This document shows positions 2,581 to 56,672 of a DNA stretch of 64,000 nt, one piece after another. The notes under the pieces were generated by a model. That model had not been told where the DNA came from. It made no database searches and saw only the letters and a list, made by a program, of their open reading frames with translations. The translations under genes and the position numbers were made by a program. Source of the stretch: an uncultured Collinsella sp. (GTDB taxonomy: Bacteria > Actinomycetota > Coriobacteriia > Coriobacteriales > Coriobacteriaceae); assembly GCA_959602645.1 (NCBI GenBank), contig CAUGTZ010000008.1, positions 3,149 to 67,148 of the forward strand, given 5' to 3'. Numbering within the stretch: the first letter of the stretch is position 1; each line of letters opens with the position of its first letter.

Positions 2581-2827
2581 CGCTGCTAGTCGAACAGTGC
2601 CATTTCAAAACTATGCCGGTTTACTACCGTAAAACCGATAGGACCGACCACATTTGCTATTAGCAGAAAATGGCAAGCTTTCTACCTGCGGCTTTGATAA
2701 CGCTGTTCTTTCCATAGTTGAAAGAATACGATTCATCGTAGTAAACCGGCATAGTTTTGTAACCGACGGGTCGAGTCGGCACCGCAACAAACCTAATAAC
2801 CCGTTTTCTTCCATCCTCAAAGGATCA
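2581..2827 (-). repeat. family-B structured element, copy 1 (about 247 bp)
   Basis: Perfect 22-bp inverted repeat 2606-2627/2738-2759 around 110 nt; collinear with copy 2 at 21071-21317, with the same offsets for arms, core TCTACCTGCGG (2681-2691) and 27-nt end block (2801-2827). Confidence 0.75.
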
Positions 2828-2841
2828 AATGCATGGCAGGA

Positions 2842-2885
2842 GTGTCCCTAACTGCCGGCAGATAAGGAACGTCCCCAAGTGCCGG
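2842..2885 (+). repeat. family-C hairpin motif, copy 1 (about 1.6 tandem units)
   Basis: Stem CCGGCA/TGCCGG (2855-2860/2880-2885) encloses a loop with AAGGAACGTCCCCAA; preceded by partial unit GTCCCTAACTGCCGG. Confidence 0.65.
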
Positions 2886-2886
2886 G

Positions 2887-2924
2887 TAAAAAGAAAAAGC
2901 CCTGCCGCGAGTTTGCGGCAGAGC
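2887..2924 (-). terminator. intrinsic terminator of lacF
   Basis: CTGCCGC-gagttt-GCGGCAG hairpin; minus strand then reads CTTTTTCTTTTT. Confidence 0.6.
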
Positions 2925-2955
2925 TTTTGGAAGGGGACTTGGTTGTGCGGGCTCG

Positions 2956-3508: not shown

Positions 3509-4513
3509 CTAGCGCAAATCGCGCACCGTATCGCCCTCTACGAGCACGCCGGGGATCAGCATGTGCTCCACACCAGACGCACCCCCCTCGGCACTGGCGA
3601 TCTTATCGACTGCCCACATGCCGACACGCCTGTTGTCAAAGCGCACGGTGGTCAGGCGACGGTCGGGCACGATATCGCCCAGGCTGTCATCAACACCCAC
3701 CACGCTCACGTCCTCGGGCACGCGCTTTCCGCGCGACTCGAGCCCGCGAATGCAACCGTATGCCATGGCATCGTTGGAGGCATAGATGGCAGTACAGGCT
3801 GGATCGTCCGCCAGTGCCTGACCTGCGGCATACCCACTCTGAGCCGTCCAATCGCCACGGATGAGTCGCGGCAGCTCAATACCATGTGCACGCAATGTCT
3901 CGCGCCAGCCTTCCTCGCGCTGCATGCCCGAAAGAGAGCGCTCGGGGCACGAGATAAAGTGCACGGTCTTGTGCCCCTGCTCCAGCAAATACTCGACCAC
4001 CTGGCGCGAGCAATCGAACTGGTCGTTATCGACTGTTGAACAGAGCGGGTGCTCCAGCATGGTAACGAGCACCGTCTGCATACCGGGCAGCGGCTCGAAG
4101 GTGCCAAAGTCCGCCGGCATGCGATTCATGATCACAACCATGCCATCCACCGGCAGCGCGCTCATGCGCGACGATGCGCTCTCGAGGGTATACGGATGCC
4201 CGTCTACTTTAGTAAGGGTGATGGCATAGCCATGTTTGTCGGCCGCGGCGGCAAAGCCCTCCATACGGTCGAGGTTGCCGGTGCCGGTAATGTTGAACAT
4301 GGCGACGCCGACGGTCTTAAACTTGCCGCGGCGCAGCGATCGACCGGCAAAATTGGGGCGATACCCCAGCTCGCGCATGGCGGCGCGCACGCGCTCCTTG
4401 GTCTCGGGGCGCACGCTGGGCGAATCGTGCACCGTACGCGAGACTGTCTGCTCCGAGACGCCCGCGAGACGCGCCACGTCCTTAACGGAAACCGATTTTT
4501 TAACAGCGGCCAT
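3509..4513 (-). CDS. LacI-family transcriptional regulator (cassette 1)
   Basis: 334-aa ORF; N-terminal HTH VKDVARLAGVSEQTVSRTV plus a periplasmic-binding-like sugar domain; divergent from lacE1. Confidence 0.9.
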   Translation of the reverse strand: MAAVKKSVSVKDVARLAGVSEQTVSRTVHDSPSVRPETKERVRAAMRELGYRPNFAGRSLRRGKFKTVGVAMFNITGTGNLDRMEGFAAAADKHGYAITLTKVDGHPYTLESASSRMSALPVDGMVVIMNRMPADFGTFEPLPGMQTVLVTMLEHPLCSTVDNDQFDCSRQVVEYLLEQGHKTVHFISCPERSLSGMQREEGWRETLRAHGIELPRLIRGDWTAQSGYAAGQALADDPACTAIYASNDAMAYGCIRGLESRGKRVPEDVSVVGVDDSLGDIVPDRRLTTVRFDNRRVGMWAVDKIASAEGGASGVEHMLIPGVLVEGDTVRDLR

Positions 4514-4869: not shown

Positions 4870-6639
4870 ATGGAGCAACTCATCGCCACCATCGAAAAAG
4901 GCCAGCCCTTTTTCAACGCGATCGCCCGCAACAAGTACCTCAAGGCGATTCGCGACGGCTTTATCTCCGTCATCCCCATCATCATCTTCTCGTCCATCTT
5001 CTGCCTGGTAGCCTCGGTCCCCAACATCTGGGGTTTCTACTGGCCCGATGACATCAACAACGCCCTGTGGAAGTGCTACAACTACTCCATGGGCATCCTG
5101 GCTATCGCCTGCGCCGCCACCACGGCCAAGCACTTCGCCGACGCCCAGAACCGCGACCTGCCCAAGAACAACCAGATCAACTTTATCTCGTGCATGTGCG
5201 CGGCCATCATCGGCTTCTTGCTCCTTTCGAGCGACACCATCGCCACGGACGCCGCCAGCGGCTTCAACACCACCTACCTTGGTTCCAAGGGCCTGCTGAC
5301 CGCCTTCATCGCTGCGTTTGTGACCGGCATCATCTACAAGTTCTTTATCAAGCGCAACATCACCGTCAAGATGCCCGAGCAGGTTCCGCCTAACATCTCG
5401 CAGACCTTTAAGGACATCATCCCCTTCTCCGTCTGCATCACCGTCTTTTGGGTCTTTGACATCGTCTTCCGCGCTGCCTTTGGCTTCTGCTTTGCCCAGG
5501 GCGTCATCCAGGTGTTCCAGCCCCTGTTCACCGCTGCCGACGGCTACATCGGCCTCGCTGTGATCTACGGCGCCATGAGCCTCTTCTGGTTCGTCGGCGT
5601 CCACGGCCCCTCGATCGTCGAGCCCGCCATCGCCGCTGCTCTCGTTGCCAACATGACCGACAACCTGGCTGCATTCCAGGCCGGCGAGCACGCCACCGCC
5701 GTCCTGACGCAGGGCGCCCAGTACTTCGTCGTCTGCATGGGCGGTACCGGCGCCACGCTCGTCCTGGTCTTTATGTTCTGCTTCCTGGCCAAGTCCCAGG
5801 AGATGCGCGCCGTCGGTAAGGCCGCCATCGTCCCCGTGTGCTTTGCCGTCAACGAACCGCTGCTGTTCGCCGCACCTATCGTGCTCAATCCCGTCTTCTT
5901 TGTCCCGTTTGTCTTTGCCCCAATCGCCAACATCTGGATCCTCAAGGTCTTTATCGACTTCTTGGGCATGAACGGCTTTATGTACACCCTGCCTTGGACC
6001 GTCCCCGGCCCCATTGGCACCATCATGGGCCTGGGCTTCCAGCCGCTCGCCTTTGTGATGCTCGCCATCATCCTAGTCGTCGACTTTGCCCTGTACTACC
6101 CGTTCTTCCGTGCCTATGACGCCCAGAAGTGCGCCGAGGAGGCCGAGATCTCCCAGGAGGAGCTCGCCGCCAAGAACGCCGAGAAGGCCGCCAAGCTCAA
6201 CGACGCCTTCCAGGGTAAGGCCGACGCCAAGAGTGTTGCCGCCGGCGCCGCTGCCGAGGTCGTAAAGACCGACGCCGCCCCCGCTGCTGCCGCCACCGAG
6301 GCTTCGGCCGCCAGCGACCTCAACGGCAAGCGCGTACTCGTGCTCTGCCAGGGCGGAGGCACCTCGGGCCTGCTCGCCAACGCGCTGGCCAAGGCCGCCA
6401 AGGAGCGCGGCATCGATCTTGAGACCGCTGCCGATGCCTATGGCAACCACGTGGACATGCTTCCCGACTTTGACCTGGTCGTCCTGGCTCCGCAGGCTGC
6501 CAGCTACCTGGCCGACCTGCAGAAGGACTGCGAGCGTGTGGGCAACAAGTGCGTCGCCTGCCGTGGTAAGCAGTACATCGAGCTCTCCCAGAACGGCGAC
6601 AAGTCTCTCGCCTTCGTGAGCGAGCAGCTGTCGAAGTAA
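4870..6639 (+). CDS. lacE: PTS lactose-specific EIICB component (cassette 1)
   Basis: 589-aa ORF; EIIC-Lac N-terminus (KGQPFFNAIARNKYLKAIRDGF), Ala/Glu-rich linker, C-terminal EIIB with VLVLCQGGGTS. Confidence 0.9.
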   Translation: MEQLIATIEKGQPFFNAIARNKYLKAIRDGFISVIPIIIFSSIFCLVASVPNIWGFYWPDDINNALWKCYNYSMGILAIACAATTAKHFADAQNRDLPKNNQINFISCMCAAIIGFLLLSSDTIATDAASGFNTTYLGSKGLLTAFIAAFVTGIIYKFFIKRNITVKMPEQVPPNISQTFKDIIPFSVCITVFWVFDIVFRAAFGFCFAQGVIQVFQPLFTAADGYIGLAVIYGAMSLFWFVGVHGPSIVEPAIAAALVANMTDNLAAFQAGEHATAVLTQGAQYFVVCMGGTGATLVLVFMFCFLAKSQEMRAVGKAAIVPVCFAVNEPLLFAAPIVLNPVFFVPFVFAPIANIWILKVFIDFLGMNGFMYTLPWTVPGPIGTIMGLGFQPLAFVMLAIILVVDFALYYPFFRAYDAQKCAEEAEISQEELAAKNAEKAAKLNDAFQGKADAKSVAAGAAAEVVKTDAAPAAAATEASAASDLNGKRVLVLCQGGGTSGLLANALAKAAKERGIDLETAADAYGNHVDMLPDFDLVVLAPQAASYLADLQKDCERVGNKCVACRGKQYIELSQNGDKSLAFVSEQLSK

Positions 6640-8258: not shown

Positions 8259-8408
8259 CCGTTTGTCTCGATCTGTAACATCTAGCCGAGTTTTTTGGTC
8301 CTAGCTGTTACAGATTGAGACGAACAGGATTGCTCTTTCCGAAGAATCTAAATCTGTAACACGTAGCCCGCTTTTGACCGTCTACCTGTTACAAATCGAG
8401 ACAAACGG
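8259..8408. repeat. family-A compound palindromic element, copy 1
   Basis: Four about 20-bp units (CCGTTTGTCTCGATCTGTAACA type) in alternating orientation at 8259-8280, 8306-8328, 8345-8361 and 8387-8408; two 25-nt loops. Confidence 0.85.
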
Positions 8409-8416
8409 AGTAGGAC

Positions 8417-13268: not shown

Positions 13269-13416
13269 CTGTTCATCTCAATCTGTAACATCTAGCCGAG
13301 TTTTTCGGTCCTAGCTGTTACAGATCGAGATGAACGCACAGGCCAAGCCGAAAATCTCAATCTGTAACATGTAGACCACTTTTGACCGTCTAGTTGTTAC
13401 AGATCGAGACAAACGG
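13269..13416. repeat. family-A compound palindromic element, copy 2
   Basis: Units at 13269-13290, 13316-13336, 13352-13369 and 13395-13416; loop 1 is nearly identical to copy 1. Confidence 0.85.
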
Positions 13417-13432
13417 AATAGGCCGAGCACGT

Positions 13433-18082: not shown

Positions 18083-18235
18083 CCGTTTGTCTCGATTTGT
18101 AACATCTAGCAGGGATTTTCAATCCTAACTGTTATAGATTTAGACGAACGGGCGACCAGGGCTGAAAGATCTCAATCTGTAACACGTAGCCGAGTTTTTC
18201 GATCCCAACTGTTACAGATTGAGACGATTCGACGG
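18083..18235. repeat. family-A compound palindromic element, copy 3
   Basis: Units at 18083-18104, 18130-18151, 18168-18184 and 18210-18235; more diverged than copies 1 and 2. Confidence 0.8.
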
Positions 18236-18292
18236 TACCGGTCGCTTGGACACGCCGTGGTACAATTATGCCACGACGCAAAGGAGGTACCC

Positions 18293-21015: not shown

Positions 21016-21058
21016 AGCGCCCGCCGGCACCACCGCCGACGGGCGCTTTTTCATCTTT
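21016..21058 (+). terminator. intrinsic terminator of galM
   Basis: AGCGCCCGCCGGC/GCCGACGGGCGCT stem followed by TTTTTCATCTTTT. Confidence 0.65.
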
Positions 21059-21070
21059 TGGGCTCATTTT

Positions 21071-21317
21071 CGCTGTGACTGTATGAGTGACATATCAAAA
21101 CTATGCCCATTTACTACGTTTAGCCCAGGATGCTCGACCATGCACCGGTTTTTGTTAAATTCGCGAGCCGTCTACCTGCGGTTTTGTTTTACCCAAATTC
21201 GACATGCTCGGCGATAGCCGATCAAACGTAGTAAACGGACATAGTTTTTGACAGGCGGCATCGCCGCGTCCCTCGCAAGGGCAAAATGATCCGTTTTCCT
21301 CCGTCCCCAAGGGATCA
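21071..21317 (-). repeat. family-B structured element, copy 2 (about 247 bp)
   Basis: 25-bp arms at 21097-21121/21224-21248; the two arm mismatches are G-U pairs only on the minus-strand transcript; core TCTACCTGCGG at 21171-21181; the end block abuts the stop of the EIIB-like gene. Confidence 0.75.
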
Positions 21318-21797
21318 GTTGAACAGATTGCCGATGGGGTCGGGGGCGGAACTGGGGAGATAGCGGATTTCTAGCTCTATGCCGAGCGCCTGCAGTTCTT
21401 TGAGGGCAGCAACGTCTGCGTCGCTCACGGCAACCGCGGGCGTTATGGGGCGCTTGCCCTCCCCTGCCTGCATATGGCCAATGTTGATTTTGGTGATCGG
21501 CACACCGCCCTTAACCAGCGCGAGCGCATCGGCGGGTGAGGCCACCATGATGAGAATCCATTGGCGCGGCGTTGCGGTATGAATGATGTCGATGGTCCTT
21601 TGCACCGAGAAAAACCGCGTCCAAACGCCTTCTGGCGCCGCCACCCTCATGGGTGCCCATTGGCGCGAATCCGCCGCGATCTCATCGTTGACGATTAGGA
21701 CAAGGTTGGAACCCACGGCTTCGTTCCACAGCTCAACGTCTTGCCCGTAAATGAAACGGTCGTCGATACGCGTGAGAAGAATCTTGGGTTGAGCCAT
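21315..21797 (-). CDS. orphan PTS mannose-family EIIB paralog with Tyr in place of the phospho-His
   Basis: 160 aa; aligns end to end with the EIIB at 31065-31547, but the RLVHGQV motif reads RFIYGQD (TAC codon). Confidence 0.75.
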   Translation of the reverse strand: MAQPKILLTRIDDRFIYGQDVELWNEAVGSNLVLIVNDEIAADSRQWAPMRVAAPEGVWTRFFSVQRTIDIIHTATPRQWILIMVASPADALALVKGGVPITKINIGHMQAGEGKRPITPAVAVSDADVAALKELQALGIELEIRYLPSSAPDPIGNLFN

Positions 21798-41599: not shown

Positions 41600-42081
41600 G
41601 TCCACTACCCTGCCTTCTGTGTCGTATACGATCCGTGCCCTGCACGGAATATCGGGTTGTTCCCACCAGCTGACCTGGTATTTGACCCCACACTTGCGCA
41701 CCGGGGCGTTTGCTCGGGAGGCCGCAGCCACCTTCACGACTGGCCCGCTCGCCCGCGAGGCGGTATTGCCCCAAAGAAAGTAGAACGGACGGTGCGGCTT
41801 ACATCTAGGACGCGCCATGATCGCGCCGCGCGCACGCGGTCGCTTACGTGGATCCCTTTGACCGCGTCTGTCTTGGACTAGGACGGGCATTTCGTCCGTC
41901 CGCAACCACAGCCTGGTAGGAACGAAGCGCATTATAGCTAAGTTCAAGCTAAAGTTTAAGGTTAGGGGCGTCATTCGCATCGCGAGTACAGATTTCGCAG
42001 GTCGGAGTGGGCTATTCGTGCCCCTATGAAGCCCGAAGCTCCCCTGTGGGGAGCTCCGGGACACCCTTCTTAGGGTGCCGT

Positions 42082-42296
42082 GGCCAAAAAATGGCAAATA
42101 TGAGTACTGTCACCAATTTAGTAACAGGCAGTTTTGGCCTCTCGGACAGATTTTGCGCTCAGTGTCGTCAACCTGATGCTTAGTTATTCTACATTTGTTT
42201 ATTATCTTCTTACTTTACGATGCCTCCGAGTCCTAAATTCCTTGATTTTGCTGTTACTGATTTAGTGACAGTACTCATATTTGCCATATTTTGGCC
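42082..42296. mobile_element. MITE-like element (about 215 bp) with about 47-bp terminal inverted repeats
   Basis: GGCCAAAAAATGGCAAATATGAGTACTGTCAC... at 42082 pairs with ...GTGACAGTACTCATATTTGCCATATTTTGGCC ending at 42296; AT-rich interior, no ORF. Confidence 0.65.
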
Positions 42297-42331
42297 ATGG
42301 CATATGATTAACCCCCTATTTTCGACGCGAA

Positions 42332-47864: not shown

Positions 47865-47966
47865 GGGCGCAGTCCCTTCCTACAAGGCGCGTAAATGCAG
47901 ATATATCAACCAAGCCATGATACCCCAGTGCTCGGCGCGTCCCCAATGGCTAAAGGTGCCTTTCCA

Positions 47967-48035
47967 AAGTTGCGGTGAAATAGGGACTGATTGAAGCTCT
48001 GAGACCGCCAAACAGTCCCTATTTCACCGCAACTT
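47967..48035. repeat. perfect 23-bp palindrome with a 23-nt loop in the tmk / zinc-ribbon divergent region
   Basis: AAGTTGCGGTGAAATAGGGACTG (47967-47989) and its exact reverse complement (48013-48035). Confidence 0.8.
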
Positions 48036-48103
48036 ATGATGGGGAATTTTGAGCGGTGGGTATAATCGTCGTATTGCATTGAAATGTGGCGAAAGGAGTG
48101 GCA

Positions 48104-49105: not shown

Positions 49106-49163
49106 CCGGCAGTTAGGGACGTTCCTAAACTGCCGGCAGAAAAGGAACGTCCCTAACTGCCGG
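49106..49163 (+). repeat. family-C hairpin motif, copy 2 (two overlapping hairpins)
   Basis: CCGGCAGTT-AGGGACGTTCCTA-AACTGCCGG, then CCGGCAG-AAAAGGAACGTCCCTAA-CTGCCGG. Confidence 0.7.
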
Positions 49164-49210
49164 ATAAAAAACGAGCGAGGATTTTGAGGTCCTCGCTCGT
49201 TTTTGTTTTA
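49164..49210. terminator. bidirectional terminator between the zinc-ribbon gene and topA
   Basis: ACGAGCGAGGA/TCCTCGCTCGT stem flanked by an A-run and TTTTTGTTTT. Confidence 0.7.
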
Positions 49211-56603: not shown

Positions 56604-56632
56604 TAGTCATTTAAGAACGTCCCCAATGACTA
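56604..56632 (+). repeat. family-C hairpin motif, copy 3
   Basis: Stem TAGTCATT/AATGACTA (unrelated to copies 1 and 2) encloses the loop TAAGAACGTCCCC. Confidence 0.6.
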
Positions 56633-56672
56633 AAACGCCGCTTGTGACGGTGTTCACGGGCGGCGTTTTCAA
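56633..56672. terminator. bidirectional terminator between 56346-56600 and nhaA
   Basis: AACGCCGC...GCGGCGTT stem followed by TTTC; A-run upstream. Confidence 0.6.

What the first reader, a model, noticed from the sequence alone, without database searches (positions are those of the whole stretch)
49106..49163. Family C: short hairpin with a conserved loop (A)AGGAACGTCCC(C/T)AA and non-homologous compensating stems, always just before a terminator
Seen directly on the plus strand there are three copies. Copy 1 is CCGGCA-gaTAAGGAACGTCCCCaag-TGCCGG (2855-2885). Copy 2 is CCGGCAG-aaAAGGAACGTCCCTaa-CTGCCGG (49133-49163), preceded by an inverted unit at 49106-49136. Copy 3 is TAGTCATT-TAAGAACGTCCCC-AATGACTA (56604-56632). 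The loop is conserved, while the stem of copy 3 is an entirely different sequence that still pairs perfectly over 8 bp. This is the pattern expected for a selected hairpin (RNA or protein-bound DNA), not simple sequence duplication. All three lie in gaps downstream of genes and are followed within 1-15 nt by a bidirectional intrinsic terminator. The loop core is nearly palindromic (GGAACGTCCC against GGGACGTTCC).
Basis: seen in the sequence. Interest (0 to 1): 0.7.

Follow-up and report, generated by a model that had tools for sequence, protein, structure and literature searches.

The report
Collinsella REP-like palindromic repeat family
The three hairpins are real copies of a short palindromic repeat scattered through the non-coding DNA of the gut bacterium Collinsella, much like the REP elements of E. 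coli, so this is an ordinary kind of genomic repeat that seems not to have been described in this genus.

Summary
In detail: the window has four full units at three loci (2855-2885, 49106-49136, 49133-49163, 56604-56632), plus a missed half-unit at 2836-2858. Each locus abuts a bidirectional terminator.

- **Dispersed repeat.** A scan of species genomes returned 119 stretches, 118 labelled Collinsella, Coriobacteriaceae or uncultured bacterium.
- **Two subfamilies.** Type I has the arm CGGCA/TGCCG and type II has TAGTC/GACTA. Four of five stem pairs are compensated between them, so copy 3 is a true type II member.
- **Little evidence of ongoing selection for pairing.** Within a subfamily the stems are as conserved as the "loop". 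The one stem pair that varies on both sides shows no compensation.
- **The "loop" pairs.** It pairs with itself through G·U/G·T wobbles, on the strand reading GGGACGTTC only.
- **Arrangement.** Units usually carry a 3′ half-unit, giving a ~50-nt composite. They occur as singlets, inverted doublets and mosaic arrays that differ between strains.
- **Terminators.** About 29% of clusters lie within 45 nt of a terminator-like hairpin, against 7% of random positions: enriched, not "always".
- **IS target.** An IS1111-type (IS110-family) insertion sequence sits at one fixed position of type I units at seven independent sites.

Best reading: a REP/BIME-like repeat, a new member of a known kind. How it spreads is unknown, and no RAYT was found.

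The parts
2855..2885 (-). Type I unit (copy 1). The minus strand reads CCGGCACTTGGGGACGTTCCTTATCTGCCGG.
   Evidence: CM hit 51.4 bits on the minus strand against 12.5 on the plus strand. Fold -20.1 kcal/mol on the minus strand against -15.3 on the plus strand, together with part B.
2836..2858 (-). Part B, the 3' half-unit of the composite: GGCAGTTAGGGACACTCCTGCC. It repeats the left arm and the half-core, with ACAC in place of ACGT.
   Evidence: GGAGTGTCCCTAACTGCCGG, 2 mismatches. The same A+B composite occurs as 89 distinct sequences in other genomes.
2888..2927 (.). Bidirectional intrinsic terminator downstream of the PTS IIA gene (A-tract, GC stem, T-tract). It is a separate hairpin, not part of the repeat.
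49106..49136 (+). Type I unit and left half of the inverted doublet: CCGGCAGTTAGGGACGTTCCTAAACTGCCGG.
   Evidence: CM 51.3 bits. The doublet folds as a 21-bp perfect hairpin, -45.9 kcal/mol, z -10. Conserved in 10 of 10 related strains.
49133..49163 (-). Type I unit and right half of the inverted doublet (a REPIN-like pair that shares CCGG with the left unit).
   Evidence: CM 47.9 bits..
49167..49204 (.). Bidirectional intrinsic terminator between the 327-aa zinc-ribbon gene and topA.
   Evidence: 17-pair stem followed by a T-run.
56604..56632 (-). Type II unit (copy 3). The minus strand reads TAGTCATTGGGGACGTTCTTAAATGACTA. It has no part B.
   Evidence: CM 42.1 bits. Fold -10.4 kcal/mol on the minus strand against -6.4 on the plus strand. 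Present in 7 of 10 related strains, with uncompensated point changes.
56633..56670 (.). Bidirectional intrinsic terminator between the 84-aa gene and nhaA.
47934..47952 (-). Tentative degenerate type II half-unit (TAGCCATTGGGGACGCGCC on the minus strand), in the divergent tmk/327-aa gene spacer and next to another palindromic repeat.
   Evidence: (2 mismatches). The TAGCCATTGGGGAC arm variant is also seen in L121. Below the CM threshold.

Best explanation
Family C is a Collinsella-specific family of REP/BIME-like extragenic palindromic repeats.

**Anatomy.** The basic unit is a ~31-nt imperfect palindrome. It has a 5-7 bp outer stem, a one-base 3' bulge, an inner stem (TTRGGG with YTCYTWA) and an ACGT apex. 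It is usually followed by a half-unit (left arm + TTGGGGACACTCY), which makes a ~50-nt oriented composite. There are two sequence subfamilies with mutually compensated outer stems. Type I is CGGCA/TGCCG (copies 1 and 2). Type II is TAGTC/GACTA (copy 3).

**Shown here.**
- Copies are scattered in intergenic DNA, preferentially 3' of genes.
- They occur as singlets, inverted doublets and mixed type I/type II arrays.
- Arrays are reshuffled by recombination or slippage between the shared 12-13 nt core. This produces chimeras, contractions and expansions.
- An IS1111-type insertion sequence uses type I units as a specific landing site.

**Inferred.**
- The family multiplied as selfish or near-neutral DNA. 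Its single-stranded hairpin form, on the strand reading GGGACGTTC (the only strand where the inner stem closes through G·T/G·U wobbles), was or is the substrate of an unidentified mobilising activity.
- Copies persist where insertion is tolerated, namely between a stop codon and the terminator or just beyond the terminator. That is why all three window copies sit against terminators.
- When transcribed, a unit would add a stable 3'-UTR hairpin. Any host-level effect (protection from 3' exonuclease, a backstop to termination) is secondary and untested.
For: **Distribution**
All but one mis-binned contig are titled Collinsella, Coriobacteriaceae or 'uncultured bacterium'.
- Only 1 IMG/VR contig matched.
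- The core occurs 212 times in 881 kb, against 6.7 expected. That total includes the roughly 119 matches the loci were selected for. Type II units were not selected for.
- At least 31 distinct loci.

**Structure**
- Two subfamilies with composite A+B architecture and defined ends.
- Stem statistics: 86.8% of cells paired against 78.6% in shuffles, and 34-55% for slid partners. Pairs 3, 4, 6 and 7 of alignment A1 are compensated between the types.
- The GGGAC strand is more stable in 115 of 126 unique units, mean -11.4 against -8.1 kcal/mol.

**Dynamics**
- The copy 1 locus has at least 3 alternative repeat contents among strains with an identical IIA protein.
- L152 against L044 shows loss of one 27-nt period. 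L057 against L043 shows doublet against singlet. Many orthologous sites differ in length.
- Type I/type II chimeras in L039 and L068; TAGTCATTGGG in three tandem copies in L106.

**Context**
- Clusters by spacer type: convergent 38, codirectional 34, divergent 20. The background of spacers is 89, 263 and 98.
- A terminator-like hairpin lies within 45 nt of 40 of 137 clusters, against 6.9% of random positions.
- 9 of 104 unique units start within -3 to +5 nt of a same-strand stop codon.

**IS targeting**
- An IS110-family recombinase (Pfam PF01548 + PF02371) is inserted at the same position of type I units at 7 independent sites. Six of these have uninterrupted orthologues in other genomes.
- This parallels the known REP targeting by IS621 and ISPpu9 (PMC1525189, PMC11208160, PMC12288879).
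Against: - No mobilising enzyme was identified.
- No clean filled-versus-empty site was found, so transposition itself is not shown. The copies could in principle have spread only by recombination.
- The per-genome copy number was not measured. The only unbiased sample is 4 units in 64 kb.
- Two observations would also fit an RNA-level function: the strand asymmetry, and the sense-orientation bias in codirectional spacers (8 loci sense, 1 antisense, 4 mixed, made with a crude gene caller).
Confidence: 0.75

Rival explanations
1. A selected cis-acting RNA hairpin in 3' UTRs. It would be transcribed on the GGGACGUUC strand directly after stop codons and act as an RNA-protein binding site, a 3'-end stabiliser or an auxiliary (I-shaped) terminator. 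The repeat-like spread would be secondary.
For: - G·U wobbles make the GGGAC strand fold better in 115 of 126 units.
- The model scores 42-51 bits on that strand against 12.5 or less on the other.
- Sense orientation in 8 of 9 unmixed codirectional loci.
- Units start within 5 nt of a same-strand stop codon more often than a uniform spread would give: 9 of the 20 that lie within 60 nt.
- Stems are compensated between the subfamilies.
Against: - Window copies 1 and 3 lie beyond the terminator on the well-folding strand.
- Inverted doublets present both strands.
- 20 of 92 classified clusters lie in divergent (promoter-side) spacers.
- There is no compensation at the polymorphic pair 7/25.
- Orthologous copies accumulate stem-breaking changes, for example L014 and L018.
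- The content of a given spacer differs freely between strains.
- No Rfam family matches.
Confidence: 0.12
2. Arrays of double-stranded DNA binding sites for a dimeric or multimeric host protein (nucleoid-associated, topological or a recombinase). The protein would recognise the half-site TTRGGGAC arranged head-to-head (TTAGGGAC|GTTCCTAA), and the arms would be incidental.
For: - The near-palindromic 16-mer, with the half-site recurring in part A, in part B and in odd-spaced variants (GGGACAGTCCC).
- Chimeras are joined exactly at the core.
- E. coli REP/BIME elements bind gyrase, IHF and Pol I (established knowledge, recalled from memory).
Against: - All departures from dyad symmetry are G-to-A transitions, which keep wobble pairing on one strand: 3 of 3 in type II. 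That is what single-strand pairing predicts, not recognition by a dimer.
- The outer arms are compensated between the subfamilies.
- No candidate protein is known.
Confidence: 0.08
3. A chance resemblance, with copy 3 unrelated to copies 1 and 2.
For: Only 13 nt are shared between copy 3 and copies 1 and 2 within the window.
Against: - Type II units with the same arms and core recur in dozens of Collinsella loci.
- They share the part B architecture with type I and form chimeras and mixed arrays with it.
- The model built on both types scores copy 3 at 42.1 bits.
Confidence: 0.01

Closest known systems
REP / BIME elements of Enterobacteria and Pseudomonas (repetitive extragenic palindromes; REPIN doublets)
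   Same: - Imperfect palindromes of 30-40 nt with G·T-type imperfections.
- Extragenic, and enriched 3' of genes and between convergent genes.
- Several sequence classes per genome.
- Found as singlets, inverted doublets and mosaic clusters that vary between strains.
- Specific targets of IS110-family elements (IS621, ISPpu9; PMC1525189, PMC11208160, PMC12288879).
   Different: - No conserved 5' GTAG, and no RAYT gene found.
- The host is an actinobacterium (Coriobacteriia).
- The unit carries a characteristic 3' half-unit (part B).
- Density appears lower, roughly one locus per 20-45 kb by rough estimate.
- There is no sequence similarity.
Streptococcus pneumoniae BOX elements (modular boxA-boxB(n)-boxC repeats)
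   Same: Modular small intergenic repeats with variable numbers of modules. They are predicted to form stable hairpins, often lie near gene ends, and have no known mobilising enzyme.
   Different: BOX modules are longer (45-59 nt each) and have a fixed A-B-C order. There is no sequence relation. BOX elements are not known as IS110-family targets.
MITEs and IS200/IS605-derived palindrome-associated elements (PATEs)
   Same: Small, non-autonomous and hairpin-forming, with strand-asymmetric folding suggestive of a single-stranded DNA intermediate.
   Different: - No terminal inverted repeats matching any IS end, and no target-site duplication.
- The IS200-like element present in these genomes has unrelated end hairpins and targets T-rich terminator tails instead.
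Integron attC sites
   Same: - Structure-defined recombination sites that differ in stem sequence.
- Also targeted by IS1111-group elements.
- The unit contains GTTAGGG and CCCTAAC, which resemble the GTTRRRY core and the RYYYAAC inverse core.
   Different: - The order of the two motifs is reversed.
- Length is 31 nt against 55 nt or more.
- The outer base does not fit the consensus.
- There are no cassette arrays and no integrase context.

Membership tests
REP/BIME-like repetitive extragenic palindromes (descriptive class) | A short (about 20-40 nt) imperfect palindrome that can form a stem-loop | tested here: met
   The unit is 31 nt with 13 pairs. 86.8% of cells are paired, against 78.6% in shuffles.
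REP/BIME-like repetitive extragenic palindromes (descriptive class) | Extragenic and dispersed at many unrelated loci | tested here: met
   Only 5 of 138 clusters fall inside a crude gene call. There are at least 31 distinct loci. The three window loci are separated by 46 and 7 kb.
REP/BIME-like repetitive extragenic palindromes (descriptive class) | High copy number per genome (tens to hundreds) | tested here: inconclusive
   There are 4 full units in 64 kb. That extrapolates to roughly 50-140 units in a 2.3-Mb genome. No complete genome could be scanned.
REP/BIME-like repetitive extragenic palindromes (descriptive class) | Occurs as singlets, inverted pairs and mosaic clusters of several unit classes | tested here: met
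   Examples: doublets (window 49106-49163, L045, L050), arrays (L071), and type II + type I composites (L051, L102, L108).
REP/BIME-like repetitive extragenic palindromes (descriptive class) | Serves as a specific insertion target for IS elements | tested here: met
   An IS110-family IS sits at the same position in 7 independent type I units.
RAYT-mobilised REP/REPIN (strict sense) | A conserved 5' GTAG-type tetranucleotide next to the hairpin | tested here: not met
   The consensus left border is yCGGCA (type I) or yTAGTC (type II). There is no GTAG.
RAYT-mobilised REP/REPIN (strict sense) | A RAYT (Y1 HUH transposase) gene flanked by inverted units in the same genome | tested here: inconclusive
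The only Y1_Tnp genes are IS200-like, with unrelated ends. Whole genomes were not searched.
MITE | Terminal inverted repeats matching a parent IS, plus a target-site duplication | tested here: not met
   Flanks of 56 type I and 30 type II unique copies show no duplication and no conserved target. No IS was seen with these ends.
Intrinsic terminator | A GC-rich hairpin immediately followed by a U-tract | tested here: not met
   The terminators are separate adjacent hairpins. The units themselves are followed by a T-run in 2 of 86 cases.
Any Rfam 15 RNA family (by my recollection this would include the Collinsella-1 motif) | A match to the family covariance model | tested here: not met
   No hit at the sites at gathering score. 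At E<=5 there are only spurious sub-threshold hits (SCARNA16, BASRCI414) on the long inverted repeat.
Integron attC | R''(RYYYAAC)-L''...L'-R'(GTTRRRY) order, 55 nt or more, inside cassette arrays next to intI | tested here: not met
   By inspection: the motif order is reversed, the unit is 31 nt, and there are no cassettes or integrase nearby.

The most novel reading that the evidence does not exclude
The ~50-nt A+B module is not RAYT-type REP DNA. On this reading it is the substrate of a still unidentified single-strand-specific recombinase or transposase in Coriobacteriia, with crossover at the shared TTGGGGAC|GTTC core, which would explain the type I/type II chimeras. It would also have been kept as a genus-wide 'safe-harbour' target, programmed into the bridge RNA of the IS1111-type element that inserts in its loop.
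Probability: 0.12. Interest if true: 0.6.

Novelty: new member of a known kind. Interest (0 to 1): 0.35.

Why it matters
- **First description, if confirmed.** This would be the first REP/BIME-like family described for Collinsella or Coriobacteriia. I found no description in four full-text searches.
- **Practical uses.** It explains strain-variable intergenic regions and contig breaks in Collinsella assemblies. It supplies strain-typing markers for a very diverse gut genus. It should be masked when searching these genomes for structured RNAs.
- **A natural test case.** The fixed insertion point of an IS1111-type element gives a natural target/bridge-RNA pair that could be tested directly.
- **An open question.** The absence of an obvious RAYT leaves open how such repeats spread in Gram-positive bacteria.

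Tried and rejected
- **Rfam.** Scanned at gathering score and at E<=5. Nothing real at the sites.
- **Type-agnostic collection scan.** The one genome scan therefore used a type I pattern, and type II copies were recovered from the flanks.
- **The IS200-like Y1 transposase next to the copy 1 orthologue (L004, L010).** It looked like a RAYT or parent element. Its ends are unrelated, and its four insertions all follow T-rich terminator tails, so it was rejected as the mobiliser.
- **T-tract as insertion target.** This was suggested by all three window loci. Only 6 of 86 unique units follow a T-run.
- **RAYT search by tblastn.** No hit.
- **Genes flanked by inverted units.** Nothing convincing.
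- **Clean empty sites, from flank-to-flank BLAST among 152 loci.** Only array contractions, expansions and replacements were found.
- **GC skew of the window, to assign the leading strand.** Uninformative.
- **Other identities.** attC, parS, DNA-uptake-sequence and CRISPR identities were considered and rejected on anatomy.
- **Literature.** No paper mentions the motif in bacteria or a Collinsella REP family.

Full report
**1. Observation**

The three quoted hairpins are at the stated coordinates. The match is not chance.
- GGAACGTCCCTAACTGCCGG with up to 3 mismatches occurs 4 times, against 0.01 expected.
- The degenerate 13-mer RGAACGTCCCYAA has four exact hits, at 2866, 49113(-), 49144 and 56614. 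With up to two mismatches it has 10 hits, a count reached by 0 of 100 shuffles.
- A covariance model of the unit, run with filters off, finds exactly four full units in the 64-kb window (51.4, 51.3, 47.9 and 42.1 bits). The next hit scores 13.8 bits. The window units were among the training sequences.

Each locus abuts a bidirectional A-tract/stem/T-tract terminator. The flanking genes are as follows:
- PTS IIA and a 337-aa membrane protein, both on the minus strand, at copy 1.
- A 327-aa zinc-ribbon protein converging on topA at copy 2.
- An 84-aa protein converging on nhaA at copy 3.

**2. Corrections to the anatomy**

- The doublet at 49106-49163 folds as one perfect 21-bp hairpin (-46 kcal/mol, z about -10) on either strand.
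- The "loop" is self-complementary on the strand that reads GGGACGTTC. TTRGGG pairs with YTCYTWA through G·U or G·T wobbles around an ACGT apex, leaving a one-base 3' bulge.
- As a result the GGGAC strand folds better in 115 of 126 distinct units, with a mean of -11.4 against -8.1 kcal/mol. For copy 1 the values are -20.1 against -15.3, and for copy 3 they are -10.4 against -6.4.
- On that strand, copies 1 and 3 lie just after the terminator T-tract, not before it.

**3. Organism and distribution**

Exact-protein look-ups place the window in the Collinsella aerofaciens group. L007 and L026 (GCA_027494235.1) have the same arrangement as the window at the copy 1 and copy 2 loci.

By their record titles, 118 are Collinsella, Coriobacteriaceae or 'uncultured bacterium'. 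The other is a 3.5-kb contig binned as Methanobrevibacter, which has the same arrangement as Collinsella loci L045 and L137. Only one IMG/VR contig matched, at a tRNA-proximal edge.

**4. Family structure**

In the 881 kb fetched, the 9-nt core GGGACGTTC occurs 212 times against 6.7 expected. About 119 of these were selected for by the scan pattern. The type II units were not.

There are two subfamilies:
- Type I: yCGGCAsTTrGGGACGTTCCTTwwsTGCCGg
- Type II: yTAGTCrTTGGGGACGTTCTTAAAyGACTAg

Most units are followed by a half-unit. In type I it is GGCAsnTnGGGACAsTCCTTG, and in type II it is GTCnnTGGGGACAsTCTTnG. Together they make an oriented composite of about 50 nt, seen as 89 distinct sequences. 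The flanks are unrelated, and there is no target-site duplication.

Copy 3 is therefore a genuine type II member. A type II composite also occupies the copy 1 locus in strains L001, L008 and L009.

**5. Is the hairpin selected?**

Evidence for pairing:
- Four of the five core stem pairs are doubly changed between the types: CG, GC, CG, AT in type I become TA, AT, TA, CG in type II.
- 86.8% of cells pair, against 78.6% in shuffles and 34-55% for slid partners. The covariation score is 0.405 against 0.252.

Evidence against ongoing selection:
- These compensations amount to a single split between two lineages.
- Within a type, the one pair that varies on both sides (7/25) is uncorrelated: CC 25, CG 24, GC 10, GG 9 in type I, and AC 14, AT 12, GT 6, GC 5 in type II.
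- When units are found by their stems, about one in five type II units has a mutated core. The core is therefore not markedly more conserved than the arms.
- Orthologous copies in close strains carry uncompensated changes.

The picture is a repeat family descended from two hairpin-forming master sequences. It is not a conserved loop presented on freely evolving stems.

**6. Dynamics**

- Strains encoding an identical IIA protein carry at least three different repeat contents after the same terminator.
- Flank-to-flank comparison of loci shows many length polymorphisms. Examples include loss of one 27-nt period between the direct left-arm/half-core repeats (L152 against L044) and doublet against singlet (L057 against L043).
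- Chimeric units with a type I left arm and a type II right arm occur in L039 and L068. TAGTCATTGGG is expanded to three copies in L106. Both point to recombination or slippage at the shared core.
- At the orthologous site of window 21049-21335, other species carry a 193-nt array of type I and type II units. The window has a different MITE-like element there.
- No clean empty site was found.

**7. Context**

The gene caller here was crude (based on GC at the third codon position).
- Clusters lie in convergent, codirectional and divergent spacers at 38, 34 and 20. The background of spacers is 89, 263 and 98. After merging orthologues the counts are 11, 13 and 6.
- In codirectional spacers the GGGAC strand is sense at 8 loci, antisense at 1 and mixed at 4.
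- A terminator-like hairpin lies within 45 nt of 40 of 137 clusters, against 6.9% of random positions.
- Only 6 of 86 unique units directly follow a T-run.
- 9 of 104 unique units begin within -3 to +5 nt of a same-strand stop codon. In three type II cases the TAG of the arm is itself the stop codon.
- In several species the arrays follow a larger repeated module of about 190 nt that itself contains a terminator-like hairpin. That module is absent from the window.

So the terminator link is an enrichment typical of elements tolerated in 3' intergenic DNA, not a rule.

**8. An insertion sequence uses the unit as its target**

In six loci with unrelated left flanks (L097, L101, L110, L113, L121, L130), a type I unit is interrupted after GGGACGTTCCTTT(T) by the same sequence, AATATGAGCAGGACATTGTC... 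L066 shows the opposite junction...ATGTCCTGCTCATATCGTC|TCTGCCGG. Uninterrupted orthologues exist for six of these sites.

The element encodes a 375-aa IS110-family recombinase, with PF01548 at E 2.8e-9 and PF02371 at E 7.5e-24. It has a short left end, a right end of about 320 nt and 15-bp subterminal inverted repeats. These are the IS1111-group features described in PMC11208160.

Its right end carries a 10-nt copy of the target across the insertion point, CCTTTTCTGC. A match of that length is reached in 34 of 2000 shuffles. This is only a lead towards a bridge-RNA guide.

Site-specific use of REPs by IS110-family elements is well known: IS621 and ISPpu9 (PMC1525189, PMC11208160, PMC12288879).

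**9. What it is not**

- No Rfam family matches.
- The IS200-like Y1 transposase that sits exactly between the terminator and the hairpin in L004 has unrelated end hairpins. It inserts after T-rich tails at four sites, so it is a neighbour and not the mobiliser.
- No RAYT-like sequence was found in about 1 Mb (the query was recalled from memory), and there is no GTAG.
- The unit is not a MITE (no terminal inverted repeat or target duplication), not a terminator (no U-tract of its own) and not an attC site (reversed motif order, too short, no cassettes).

**10. Verdict**

The best explanation, at about 0.75 confidence, is a Collinsella-specific REP/BIME-like palindromic repeat family with two stem classes.
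- **Shown:** it is dispersed, extragenic, modular, recombinationally unstable and used as an IS1111-type landing site.
- **Inferred:** it spreads through a single-stranded hairpin on the GGGAC strand, via an unidentified enzyme, and any effect on mRNA 3' ends is secondary.
- **Rivals:** a selected 3'-UTR RNA element (about 0.12) and a double-stranded protein-binding array (about 0.08).

I found no published description. Novelty: a new member of a known kind. Interest is modest at 0.35.

Noticed in passing
L113 2175-3714; junctions also in L066, L097, L101, L110, L121, L130: An IS1111-group (IS110-family) insertion sequence inserts at one fixed position in the loop of type I units at 7 independent sites. 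It encodes a 375-aa DEDD recombinase and has 15-bp subterminal inverted repeats (ATATGAGCAGGACAT) and a right end of about 320 nt. That right end contains a 10-nt copy of the target across the insertion point (CCTTTTCTGC; a match of that length is reached in 34 of 2000 shuffles). This is a possible bridge-RNA guide.
   Followed up: partly
L004 3407-4154 and from 5647 to beyond the locus end (gene 5786-6244); L010 from 3407 (gene 3554-4012); L133 ~5835-6598: An IS200-like element (152-aa Y1_Tnp) is inserted directly after T-rich terminator tails (TTTTnTT|). In L004 it sits exactly between the terminator and the orthologue of copy 1. Its end hairpins are unrelated to family C.
   Followed up: yes
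window 47952-48050: A different palindromic repeat with 49-nt arms around GTTGCGGTGAAATAGGGACTG lies in the tmk/327-aa gene spacer. The same family follows the PTS IIA terminator in strains L001, L008 and L009.
   Followed up: partly
window 42076-42302: Inverted arms of 52 nt (90% complementary) lie 123 nt apart (TGGCCAAAAAATGGCAAATATGAGTACTGT...). Similar sequence (TGGCCAAAAAAGGGCAAATATGAGTACTGT...) lies upstream of the IS256-family (Transposase_mut) genes at the copy 3 locus in L013 and L020, and in L022. This is probably a MITE derived from that IS.
   Followed up: no
window 2603-2762 and ~21110-21250: A MITE-like element has terminal inverted repeats of CAAAACTATGCCnnTTTACTAC about 110 nt apart. 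At 21049-21335 it occupies the site where other Collinsella species (L045, L100, L137) carry a 193-nt array of type I and type II units.
   Followed up: partly
window 8264-8414, 13274-13422, 18088-18237: Pairs of ~70-nt repeats that are internally palindromic (TCTCGATCTGTAACA...TGTTACAGATCGAGA) follow each of three paralogous gene blocks. Those blocks share 66-84% repeats of 74-300 nt (families D1-D4, D6-D16).
   Followed up: no
window 41661-41921 (-): A raiA RNA motif (RF03072) at 149.5 bits, full length.
   Followed up: no
L058, L064, L068, L084, L102, L108, L110, L123, L130, L132, L145: A structured repeat module of about 190 nt starts right after the stop codons of at least four different genes and precedes the family C arrays. 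It runs GTTACGGCGTTTTACCAAACGCCGTAAC ... AAAAGGCAAGGCATGACCAGAAGGTCTATGCCTTGCCTTTTT ... CTGCGGCGTTGCC. Its leading hairpin has no match in the window (up to 3 mismatches).
   Followed up: partly
L071, L077, L117: In three type II units the TAG that opens the arm TAGTC serves as the stop codon of the upstream gene. The repeat therefore either targets the stop codon or supplies it.
   Followed up: no
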